DNA of 37,979 nt, from IMG/VR virus record IMGVR_UViG_2850784384_000004, one strand, 5' to 3'. This document shows, in pieces, positions 6,260 to 7,198 of this stretch. The notes beneath the pieces are model-generated. The model saw nothing but the letters and a program-made list of their open reading frames with translations. It was not told the origin of the DNA and made no database searches. Made by a program: the position numbers and the translations under genes. The DNA is from a virus (lineage: Duplodnaviria > Heunggongvirae > Uroviricota > Caudoviricetes). Numbering within the stretch: the first letter of the stretch is position 1; every line of letters begins with the position of its first letter.

Positions 6260-6706
6260 TCAAAAATCATTATTGAAATTGTAGTCCATGAGATACTCAT
6301 TTTTACAGGAGGGGCATTGAGTTTTCGTATATTTATCGCCTTCCTCGATAGGGAAAGGTTGCAATATAGATATTGCTCTCTTCGCAAAACATTCTGGACA
6401 AAAATACATGGTAATCTTGCCAGAGCTAGTATTGCACTGTCTGGCATACACAATCGTTCCAGTAATCAATTAGCGAGGTTCGCAGTCTTCACTTTGGAAC
6501 TTAAACTTTTCTATCTCCGTGAGTTTTGCTTTGAGCGCAGCCTCATTGCTTTTAGAGATTGTCAGCTCATCAATGAGAGACAAATATTCAAGCTGAATGC
6601 TTGACAACTTAGAGTTTATTTCAGACACAGCGCGATCAACCTCAGCCTGAGTTTTTGCTTCATTGAATAATTTTAACATTGATGCAGTCTCTTTGAGAGC
6701 TGACAT
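6260..6706 (-). pseudogene. orphan low-GC gene: coiled-coil N-terminus plus CxxC...CxxC zinc-ribbon C-terminus, interrupted by one in-frame TAA
   Basis: ORFs 6470..6706 and 6260..6469 are in the same frame separated only by a TAA; AT-rich relative to surroundings. Confidence 0.4.
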
Positions 6707-7198
6707 CGCTAATACATCACTTGCTCACTCTTCTTATTGTTGGGGTATTCAGATTATACAAATTTCTTGTTGTTGGGGAATAACAGGAACCACCTCGCCT
6801 GACGTAGTTAAAAGCAGGCACACAACGCGAAATGACGCGGCGGTAAGTATGGCGGAGTTATTCCTTCCCCGTTGAGGACACCGGGTTGTCAGGTTGACCA
6901 TACGCTTAAGTGACAACCACGCCACAACACTCCATGTTGATTGGTACCTTTGGCGGCATCAGTTTCATTGCTGGCTGATGTCCGCCCTTTTTAAAGTGAA
7001 TTTTGTGATGCGGTGAATGCGGCTGAGCGCACGCGGAACAGTTAAAAAGCGATTAGTTCCCACGTATCGGGTGGTTATGGGTTTCCCTGTATCCGGCGTT
7101 AATTGTTAACTGGTTAACGTCACCTGGAGGCACCAGGCACCGCATCAACAAAGTTCACTTCGGTGATGAAAGGTAAGAGAAAATGTTGAATGTAGCTA

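What the first reader, a model, noticed from the sequence alone, without database searches (positions are those of the whole stretch)
6260..6790. Low-GC orphan gene with coiled-coil plus zinc-ribbon architecture, one stop codon from intact
Two adjacent minus-strand ORFs share a frame and are separated by a single TAA, so they would form one ~148-aa protein: an N-terminal coiled-coil and a C-terminal CPEC...CPSC zinc ribbon. The region is markedly more AT-rich than its surroundings. An extended -10-like TGTATAAT sits upstream (~6745..6775 on the minus strand), next to two TTGTTGGGG repeats. I recognise no family.
Basis: seen in the sequence. Interest (0 to 1): 0.45.

Follow-up and report, generated by a model that had tools for sequence, protein, structure and literature searches.

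The report
Broken Rip1 anti-phage pore gene
The two adjacent ORFs are one gene of the recently described Rip1 family of prophage-encoded anti-phage pore proteins, knocked out by a single CAA→TAA change in a decaying Shigella-type prophage, so it is a recognisable and essentially ordinary pseudogene rather than an orphan.

Summary
Window 6470-6706(-) and 6260-6469(-) share a frame and are split by one TAA. Joined, they give a 148-aa protein with a helical N-half and a CPEC…CPSC C-half, at 38.5% GC against 49.2% for the window.

It is not an orphan. It matches PHROG 1244 end to end (E 5.5e-34). A family profile hits PDB 9oox, phage HK446 Rip1 ("ring interacting pore 1") bound to T6 small terminase, at E 1.4e-49. 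An AlphaFold model of the 89%-identical intact orthologue matches only 9oox (prob 1.0, TM 0.84). The family has about 4,490 representatives, nearly all single ORFs of 150-170 aa.

Intact orthologues exist in E. coli VL40, WGI31CT and RMDEC465, and they have CAA where the window has TAA. S. flexneri SFBU1023 shares the TAA. The window also has a 10-nt deletion that removes the ancestral start codon.

The gene is a roughly 570-bp cassette, absent from K-12 Qin, set antisense between ydfC and dicF. Its promoter block is conserved as far as HK620 hkaP.

Verdict: an inactivated member of a known defence family. The finding is real, its interest is low to moderate, and the conserved regulatory block is the only unexplained feature.

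The parts
6260..6706 (-). rip1-family pseudogene: 148 codons plus the terminal TGA, interrupted at codon 79
   Evidence: ORFs. PHROG 1244 at E 5.5e-34 over residues 1-141. PDB 9oox Rip1 at E 2.6e-7 with the single sequence and 1.4e-49 with the family profile.
6473..6706 (-). N-terminal helical half (codons 1-78). In Rip1 this half forms the amphipathic, pore-forming part.
   Evidence: AlphaFold model of orthologue P0001 shows helices 2-23 and 27-79, pLDDT 89.9. The role is taken from the review of Patel et al. 2026.
6470..6472 (-). Premature stop TAA in a UAAU context. Intact orthologues have CAA (Gln).
   Evidence: The same TAA is present in S. flexneri SFBU1023 (L014).
6263..6469 (-). C-terminal beta-rich Cys4 domain (codons 80-148), with CPEC at 6389-6400, CPSC at 6305-6316 and the invariant SILQP motif. 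In Rip1 this half contacts the phage ring.
   Evidence: Invariant C103, C106, C131, C134, I114, L115, Q116, G83 and Y87 in alignment A1. Coordinates. Role.
6709..6720 (-). Remnant of the ancestral start (GTG ATG TAT TAG). A 10-nt deletion here puts the upstream GTG/ATG out of frame and removes 7 N-terminal residues.
   Evidence: Alignments A3 and A5. VL40 and WGI31CT encode MFDLSLA-MSALKE.
6724..6732 (-). Purine-rich Shine-Dalgarno-like run (AAGAGTGAG) serving the ancestral start
   Evidence: Read from the sequence. The AGAGT core is conserved in A5. Function is inferred.
6753..6760 (-). Extended -10 element TGTATAAT of the cassette's own promoter
   Evidence: A -10 at the same position is kept as TATAAT, GATAAT, GTTAAT or TAAAAT in 7 homologous leaders. 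It was not called by the two-hexamer scan, which requires a -35.
6764..6780 (-). Direct repeat 1 (TTCCCCAACAACAAGAA), at the -35 position
   Evidence: Conserved in A5.
6731..6747 (-). Direct repeat 2 (TACCCCAACAATAAGAA), just downstream of the -10, 33 nt from repeat 1
   Evidence: In HK620 and S.Kent 1-2-1 both repeats read CCCCTACAG instead.
6797..6821 (-). Invariant inverted repeat GCCTG-N13-CAGGC at the upstream end of the conserved promoter block
   Evidence: All 5 pairs are invariant in 7 sequences, so covariation gives no evidence for or against structure.
6207..6230 (.). Hairpin GCCGGA…TCCGGC at the downstream boundary of the cassette. It is shared with K-12 Qin, which lacks the cassette.
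   Evidence: Alignment A4. Listed as a weak terminator-like site on the + strand.
6104..6141 (+). 3' remnant of ydfC from the dic operon that the cassette sits in, cut off at its 5' side by an IS end (6077-6103)
   Evidence: Annotation of RMDEC465 and K-12. Alignment A4. The 27-nt IS terminus occurs three times in the window.
6939..6987 (+). DicF-like sRNA variant with its terminator; it is the downstream neighbour on the opposite strand. This is context, not part of the gene.
   Evidence: Rfam RF00039 at 38.8 bits, below the gathering score of 48, E 5e-7. Terminator-like site at 6955-6982 followed by a T-run.

Best explanation
The locus is a pseudogenised copy of a Rip1-family ('ring interacting pore 1') gene, a single-protein anti-phage defence carried by temperate phages.

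Mechanism in intact relatives, as published for the P. aeruginosa prophage and phage HK446 proteins, is as follows. The protein is made in the lysogen from its own promoter and is harmless on its own. When a superinfecting phage produces ring-shaped assembly proteins (portal or small terminase), the C-terminal Cys4 domain binds around the ring. Twelve Rip1 copies are thereby templated into a second ring, and their N-terminal helices form a membrane pore that kills or lyses the cell before progeny mature.

In the window the gene is a roughly 570-bp low-GC cassette (promoter plus CDS). It is inserted antisense between ydfC and dicF in the DicA-controlled early-left operon of a Qin/Rac-type lambdoid prophage. 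It has been disabled by a CAA→TAA change at codon 79, which separates the pore-forming half from the sensor half. It also carries a 10-nt deletion that removed the ancestral start codon.

What is shown here: homology, fold, allele states, cassette boundaries and the decay of the surrounding prophage. What is inferred by homology at 25-30% identity: that the intact version of this particular subfamily uses the same trigger and the same pore mechanism.
For: Family assignment:
- PHROG 1244, E 5.5e-34, full length.
- A family profile (75 sequences) hits PDB 9oox_L 'ring interacting pore 1 (Rip1)' at E 1.4e-49 over profile positions 1-150. The single sequence gives E 2.6e-7.
- The AlphaFold model of intact orthologue P0001 (89% identical) has pLDDT 89.9. 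Its only significant PDB matches are 9oox chains M and L, prob 1.00, TM(target) 0.84, rmsd 2.7 Å.
- Four Cys and the ILQ motif are invariant across the family.

Mechanism and genomic position of Rip1:
- Summarised from Patel et al. 2026 (Nature 651:1060) in PMC13434031, PMC12908700 and PMC13601566.
- D3112 orf25, a family member, lies between the terminase subunit genes exactly as described there.

One gene, not two:
- Intact CDSs of 148-155 aa exist in RMDEC465, WGI31CT and VL40, with CAA at codon 79.
- The listed representatives are mostly ~150-170 aa and matched end to end.

Pseudogene status:
- The TAA is shared with S. flexneri SFBU1023 and ECMA0423, which are syntenic with the window at 98.6% over 10 kb.
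- The stop is in a UAAU context.
- The 10-nt 5' deletion is documented.
- Neighbouring genes are also broken: ydfC is cut by an IS end, and the Rha gene is split into two ORFs and followed by an IS2-like element.

Moron-like cassette:
- It is absent from K-12 Qin.
- Homologues point against their neighbours in HK620, HK630, PhiR29_2, D3112, RcWaterboi and five E. coli prophages.
Against: - No experiment on this subfamily is available. Identity to the characterised HK446 protein is only about 25-30%.
- The primary paper could not be read, so the defining features come from secondary summaries.
- The simple hydrophobic-moment test for an amphipathic N-terminus was unremarkable, with muH 0.2-0.4.
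- RMDEC465 keeps an open 148-aa frame despite the 10-nt deletion, so the effect of that deletion is uncertain.
- Expression from the predicted promoter has not been verified.
Confidence: 0.87

Rival explanations
1. The two ORFs are a genuine split gene. The 78-aa helical protein and the 69-aa zinc-ribbon protein are made separately and work together, or the helical fragment alone keeps some activity.
For: The second ORF begins with TTG immediately after the TAA. The promoter block upstream is identical to that of intact alleles, so the N-terminal fragment could still be made.
Against: - Every orthologue and family member examined is one ORF.
- No Shine-Dalgarno sequence precedes the TTG.
- The same lineage accumulates further lesions: a 1-nt insertion in S. 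flexneri SFBU1023 and two stops in PSJ-22. That is the signature of neutral decay.
- In the published mechanism the sensor and pore halves must be in one chain for ring-templated assembly.
Confidence: 0.04
2. The TAA is a sequencing or assembly error, or it is bypassed by read-through, and the gene is really functional in this organism.
For: It is a single-base difference from intact alleles.
Against: - The same TAA is present in two other independent assemblies, S. flexneri SFBU1023 and ECMA0423.
- From general knowledge, UAAU is the most efficient E. coli termination context (sequence).
- The surrounding prophage is riddled with IS insertions and frameshifts.
Confidence: 0.03
3. It is a SieB-type superinfection-exclusion protein, as the HK620 annotation of hkaP suggests, or a DksA/TraR-like coiled-coil plus C4 zinc-finger regulator, rather than a Rip1-type pore.
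For: HK620 hkaP is annotated 'putative superinfection exclusion protein' and occupies the sieB-like position between cIII and N, antisense to pL. Helices followed by a C4 motif superficially resemble DksA/TraR.
Against: - No Pfam family reaches its threshold, and neither SieB nor zf-dskA_traR appears in the list even at E ≤ 1.
- The fold search finds only Rip1.
- The Cys spacing is CxxC-x24-CxxC inside a beta domain, not the DksA finger.
- The HK620 annotation is positional, not experimental.
Confidence: 0.03

Closest known systems
Rip1 (ring interacting pore 1): P. aeruginosa prophage Rip1 and phage HK446 Rip1, PDB 9oox (Patel, McCarthy, Taylor et al. 2026, Nature 651:1060)
   Same: - Homologous over the full length (profile E 1.4e-49).
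- Same fold (TM 0.84).
- Same size class.
- Same helical N-half plus Cys4 beta C-half.
- Prophage-encoded lone gene pointing against its neighbours.
   Different: - Only about 25-30% identical.
- Lies in the ydfC-dicF slot of a Qin/Rac-type prophage rather than between the terminase genes or in a Mu-like early region.
- Lacks 7 N-terminal residues.
- Carries a nonsense codon, so it cannot make the full protein.
- Trigger specificity is unknown.
HK620 / HK630 HkaP (PHROG 1244)
   Same: - Same family.
- Same antisense placement inside the early-left (pL) operon of a lambdoid phage.
- Homologous promoter and leader block: inverted repeat, two direct repeats, and a -10 at the same position.
   Different: - About 25% protein identity.
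- The direct repeats read CCCCTACAG instead of CCCCAACAA.
- HkaP is intact.
- It was annotated only as a 'putative superinfection exclusion protein'.
151-aa 'hypothetical protein' WP_001546009 / WP_042042556 in E. coli Rac/Qin-type prophages
   Same: - Occupies exactly the same ydfC-dicF slot in the same orientation.
- Has the same promoter block.
- Belongs to the same family.
   Different: - A divergent allele, roughly 40-45% protein identity.
- Found in 69 of 5,426 complete E. coli genomes, against 4 for the window-type allele.
- Intact.
SieB / RexAB-type prophage exclusion genes of lambda and P22
   Same: Functional analogy only. These are lysogen-expressed genes in or next to the pL operon that kill or disable the cell on superinfection.
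   Different: Unrelated in sequence and fold. They use different triggers and effectors.

Membership tests
Rip1 (ring interacting pore 1) | Sequence homology to an experimentally characterised Rip1 | tested here: met
   The profile of 75 family members hits 9oox_L at E 1.4e-49 with full-length coverage. The window protein alone gives E 2.6e-7 over residues 13-140.
Rip1 (ring interacting pore 1) | Same three-dimensional fold as the solved Rip1 protomer | tested here: met
   The AlphaFold model of the 89%-identical intact orthologue (pLDDT 89.9) matches 9oox_M at prob 1.00, TM(target) 0.84, rmsd 2.7 Å. No other PDB match has E < 0.4.
Rip1 (ring interacting pore 1) | Single polypeptide that joins the N-terminal pore-forming helices to the C-terminal ring-binding domain | tested here: not met
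   In the window the two halves are separated by TAA at codon 79. The feature is met in orthologues VL40, WGI31CT and RMDEC465. The window copy is therefore a pseudogene of the family, not a working member.
Rip1 (ring interacting pore 1) | Conserved C-terminal motifs (four Cys, SILQP) | tested here: met
   C103, C106, C131, C134, I114, L115 and Q116 are invariant in A1. C110, C113 and C141 are invariant and C138, L122 and Q123 are at least 90% conserved in A2.
Rip1 (ring interacting pore 1) | Amphipathic N-terminal helix | tested here: inconclusive
   The helices are predicted confidently. Eisenberg hydrophobic moments are modest (0.2-0.4), both here and in HkaP and D3112 orf25.
Rip1 (ring interacting pore 1) | Prophage-encoded stand-alone gene | tested here: met
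   It lies in a Qin/Rac-type prophage between ydfC and dicF. It has its own promoter and points against its neighbours, as in 10 other contexts.
Rip1 (ring interacting pore 1) | Dodecamer assembly around portal or small-terminase rings, pore formation, and phage protection | not testable with these tools
   This needs biochemistry, cryo-EM and plaque assays. Only the literature summary is available.
PHROG 1244 | Significant full-length match to the family HMM | tested here: met
   E 5.5e-34, 117.8 bits, protein residues 1-141 against profile positions 9-146 of 157.
SieB superinfection exclusion / DksA-TraR zinc finger | Match to the Pfam family models | tested here: not met
   No such family appears in the Pfam scan at E ≤ 1. 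The only matches are generic sub-threshold zinc-ribbon models.
Known defence systems in PADLOC-DB v2.0.0 (2023) | Match to any PADLOC model | tested here: not met
   Zero families at E ≤ 1. This is expected, because Rip1 was published in 2026.

The most novel reading that the evidence does not exclude
The roughly 105-nt promoter and leader block travels with Rip1 genes in lambdoid phages. It contains an invariant GCCTG-N13-CAGGC inverted repeat and two 17-nt direct repeats that bracket the -10 and have changed in concert between lineages. Together with the gene's constant antisense placement inside the repressor-controlled early-left operon, it could be a dedicated switch. Such a switch would keep rip1 on in the lysogen and shut it off, by operator binding and/or convergent transcription, when the resident prophage itself is induced. 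That would stop Rip1 being triggered by the prophage's own portal and terminase rings.
Probability: 0.15. Interest if true: 0.5.

Novelty: new member of a known kind. Interest (0 to 1): 0.3.

Why it matters
The practical value is in annotation. Genes now labelled 'hypothetical protein' (PHROG 1244, HK620 hkaP, WP_077889334, WP_001546009 and others) can be named as Rip1-family defence genes. PADLOC v2.0.0, the one defence-system library scanned here, has no model that matches it.

The locus adds three modest points.
1. The ydfC-dicF spacer of Qin/Rac-type prophages is a recurrent insertion slot for diversified Rip1 alleles, placed antisense to the dicF-dicB cell-division-inhibitor operon.
2. 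This allele has decayed independently several times: in the Shigella lineage, in PSJ-22, and through the 5' deletion also seen in RMDEC465. That fits the idea that a defence gene is dispensable in host-restricted lineages.
3. A regulatory block far more conserved than the protein hints at unstudied control of Rip1 expression.

None of this overturns current understanding.

Tried and rejected
- Pfam, NCBIfam and PADLOC scans gave only sub-threshold generic zinc-ribbon or coiled-coil noise.
- The first word-indexed protein search found only 2 relatives. An alignment seeded from phage tblastn hits was needed to reach the family.
- A literature search for 'hkaP' with match='anywhere' returned only unrelated SPHKAP/KAP papers.
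- The primary Rip1 paper (doi 10.1038/s41586-025-10075-1) is not held, so the mechanism is taken from a review, a meeting report and a citing paper.
- DicF did not reach Rfam's gathering score. It appears only in the E-value scan.
- The two-hexamer promoter scan does not call the extended -10 promoter.
- RNAalifold on the conserved leader found no compensatory changes. All stem pairs are invariant, so there is no evidence for an RNA structure.
- The hydrophobic-moment test for amphipathicity was uninformative.
- A weak PDB hit of the helical segment to FtsB (E 4.5e-4) was dismissed as coiled-coil composition, because the fold search shows no such match.
- SieB and DksA/TraR readings were rejected (see rival explanations).

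Full report
**1. Observation**

On the minus strand, ORF 6470-6706 (78 aa, ATG start) is followed in the same frame by ORF 6260-6469 (69 aa). The second ORF's TTG codon comes immediately after the TAA at 6470-6472. Reading through gives 148 aa, with CPEC (6389-6400) and CPSC (6305-6316) in the C-terminal half.

The CDS is 38.5% GC against 49.2% for the window, which places it in the lowest 4.8% of same-size windows. TGTATAAT lies at 6753-6760(-). CCCCAACAA occurs exactly twice in the window, at 6737-6745 and 6770-6778.

**2. One gene, broken**

- E. coli RMDEC465 carries a copy with four nucleotide differences across the 447-nt CDS (99% identical). It is annotated as a single 447-nt CDS. One of those four differences is CAA (Gln) where the window has TAA, at window position 6472.
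- VL40 and WGI31CT carry intact 155-aa versions.
- PSJ-22 has two other in-frame stops and no annotation.
- The window is syntenic at 98.6% over 10 kb with Shigella flexneri SFBU1023. That genome and ECMA0423 have the same TAA plus a further 1-nt insertion. The nonsense codon is therefore real and inherited in a Shigella-type lineage, and is not an assembly error.
- The stop sits in a UAAU context. From general knowledge, that is a strong terminator.
- The window, RMDEC465 and S. flexneri also share a 10-nt deletion at 6709-6720. It puts the GTG/ATG start used by other alleles (MFDLSLA…, VIVEFSAA…) out of frame, so translation would have to begin 7 codons further in.

**3. Family**

Pfam, NCBIfam and PADLOC give nothing above threshold. 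PHROG 1244 ('unknown function') matches end to end at E 5.5e-34.

A tblastn search of phage genomes finds single-gene homologues of about 140-190 aa in HK620 and HK630 (hkaP), an Stx1a phage, PhiR29/PhiR49, Klebsiella Kp488x phages, Mu-like E. coli phages, Pseudomonas D3112-like phages and Rhodobacter RcWaterboi. In a 9-sequence alignment the four Cys, I-L-Q, and one Gly and one Tyr are invariant. The window's stop falls at a variable linker position.

A profile search gave 95 clusters at 90% identity. The exhaustive search gave 4,490 representatives at 50% identity with E ≤ 1e-3, of which 734 have E ≤ 1e-30. The representatives listed are mostly about 150-170 aa and matched over the whole profile.

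The 75-sequence profile hits PDB 9oox chain L, 'ring interacting pore 1 (Rip1)', at E 1.4e-49. The window protein alone hits it at 2.6e-7. An AlphaFold model of the intact 89%-identical orthologue P0001 is confident (pLDDT 89.9). It shows helices 2-23 and 27-79 followed by a beta-rich Cys4 domain. Its only significant PDB matches are 9oox chains M and L, the 'Cryo-EM structure of the Escherichia phage HK446 Rip1 in complex with the Enterobacteria phage T6 small terminase' (prob 1.00, TM 0.84, rmsd 2.7 Å).

**4. What Rip1 does (literature)**

The source is Patel, McCarthy, Taylor et al. 2026 (Nature 651:1060), as summarised in PMC13434031.

- Rip1 is a prophage protein found between the small and large terminase genes of a P. 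aeruginosa prophage.
- It is not toxic alone.
- Phage escapers map to portal (Pseudomonas phages) or to small terminase (E. coli phages).
- Cryo-EM shows an 11-mer small-terminase ring surrounded by 12 Rip1 molecules.
- The N-terminal part is an amphipathic helix, and the C-terminal half contacts the ring.
- The complex forms a pore that releases dye from liposomes and makes holes in cells, which aborts phage maturation.
- Homologues are widespread in proteobacterial prophages.

PMC12908700 and PMC13601566 agree. D3112 orf25, a member of the family defined here, lies exactly between the terminase subunit genes on the opposite strand. That ties my family to the published one independently of the PDB hit.

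**5. Context**

The gene sits in the early-left ('dic') operon of a Qin/Rac-type lambdoid prophage. In the relatives the + strand order is repressor (dicA/racR-like), ydfA, (ydfB), ydfC, then [rip1 on the minus strand], then dicF, then dicB or Rha.

K-12 Qin goes directly from the hairpin after ydfC to the DicF precursor region. It lacks about 570 bp (window ~6229-6800) that hold the promoter and the CDS. The gene is therefore a discrete low-GC cassette.

The window-type allele is in 4 of 5,426 complete E. coli genomes. A second, divergent Rip1 allele (151 aa) fills the same slot in 69 genomes, and some of those matches are mosaic. The flanking sequences occur in about 3,500 genomes.

In HK620, HK630, PhiR29_2, D3112 and RcWaterboi the homologue is likewise a lone gene pointing against its neighbours.

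In the window the surrounding prophage is decayed.
- ydfC is cut at 6104 by an IS terminus that occurs three times in the window.
- IS66-like and IS3-family fragments lie to the left.
- The Rha gene is split into two ORFs and followed by an IS2-like element.

**6. Regulatory block**

The 105 nt upstream of the start are far better conserved than the CDS. They are near-identical among three E. coli alleles whose proteins are 40-46% identical. They can still be aligned with HK620 hkaP and Salmonella phage S.Kent 1-2-1, where the proteins are about 25-29% identical.

The conserved elements are:
- an inverted repeat GCCTG-N13/14-CAGGC;
- direct repeat 1 at the -35 position;
- a -10 at a fixed position (TATAAT, GATAAT, GTTAAT or TAAAAT);
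- direct repeat 2 just downstream of the -10;
- a purine-rich SD-like run;
- the GTG/ATG start.

In HK620 and S.Kent both repeats read CCCCTACAG instead of CCCCAACAA, a concerted change at two positions. That is effectively one evolutionary contrast, so it is suggestive only. RNAalifold finds no compensatory pairs, so DNA-level recognition or conservation as a recombination linker is more likely than an RNA structure. The function of this block is unknown. It is the one unexplained feature here.

**7. Verdict**

However, the gene is not an orphan. It is an inactivated member of the Rip1 anti-phage pore family, sitting in a decaying prophage.

- Shown here: homology, fold, allele states, cassette boundaries and context.
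- Inferred: that the intact form of this subfamily senses portal or terminase rings and forms pores like the characterised members, and that the promoter is active.

Interest is low to moderate (0.3). Novelty: a new (and dead) member of a known kind.

Noticed in passing
window 6707-6825 (-); L003 3860-3982; L005, L007, L010, L012 upstream of their rip1 homologues: A roughly 105-nt promoter and leader block is conserved at 70-95% nucleotide identity upstream of Rip1-family genes whose proteins are only 25-46% identical. It contains the invariant GCCTG-N13-CAGGC inverted repeat and two 17-nt direct repeats 33 nt apart that bracket the -10. Both repeats read CCCCTACAG in HK620 and S.Kent where the other leaders have CCCCAACAA.
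   Followed up: partly
window 6939-6987 (+): A DicF-like sRNA variant with its own terminator. It scores 38.8 bits, below Rfam's gathering score of 48, because the loop and 5' region differ from K-12 DicF. The roughly 130 nt upstream (6800-6935) are nearly invariant between the window, K-12, EC21GDE043 and WGI31CT.
   Followed up: partly
window 6999-7152 (+): Sub-threshold match to the sRNA family STnc100 (36.5 bits against a gathering score of 47, E 2e-6), immediately downstream of the DicF-like terminator.
   Followed up: no
window 7234-7422 (+) and 26069-26270 (-): Two copies of an isrK plus C4 antisense-RNA module (P1/P7-type antirepressor control). The first is followed by a Rha-family gene that is split into two ORFs (7183-7815 and 7778-8071) and then by an IS2-like element from about 8068.
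   Followed up: partly
window 6077-6103 (-), 13203-13229 (+), 34977-35003 (+): An identical 27-nt IS terminus (TGAAGTGGCACACTGAATTTGGCCACC) is present three times. The copy at 6077-6103 truncates ydfC. Window 5580-6043 matches an IS66-like tnpA, and ORF 5349-5960 is a chimera of HTH and transposase fragments.
   Followed up: partly
L017 (E. coli PSJ-22) ~2049-2560 (-); L014/L015 6001-6445: Other copies of the same allele have decayed independently. PSJ-22 has two different in-frame stops and no annotation. S. flexneri SFBU1023 and ECMA0423 add a 1-nt insertion to the TAA.
   Followed up: yes
E. coli genome hits H64-H68: About 40 E. coli genomes match only the first 57% of the second Rip1 allele on the + strand, which is the C-terminal half of the gene. 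This suggests mosaic alleles with swapped N-terminal (pore) halves.
   Followed up: no
window 2631-2813 (-), 15148-15264 (+), 29217-29391 (-): Rfam matches at gathering score to CssrB (a Shigella chromosomal sRNA), an ALIL pseudoknot (an IS3-family frameshift signal) and sok antitoxin RNA. These fit a Shigella-type, IS-rich chromosome region carrying several prophage remnants.
   Followed up: no
window 9300-10350: A second markedly AT-rich stretch (GC 0.37-0.40), just beyond the IS2-like element. It was not examined.
   Followed up: no
family profile A2, positions 42-105: The long helix of the family gives weak sequence hits to the FtsB coiled coil in the PDB (E 4.5e-4 and 2.9e-3). The fold search does not back this up, so it is probably coiled-coil composition.
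   Followed up: partly
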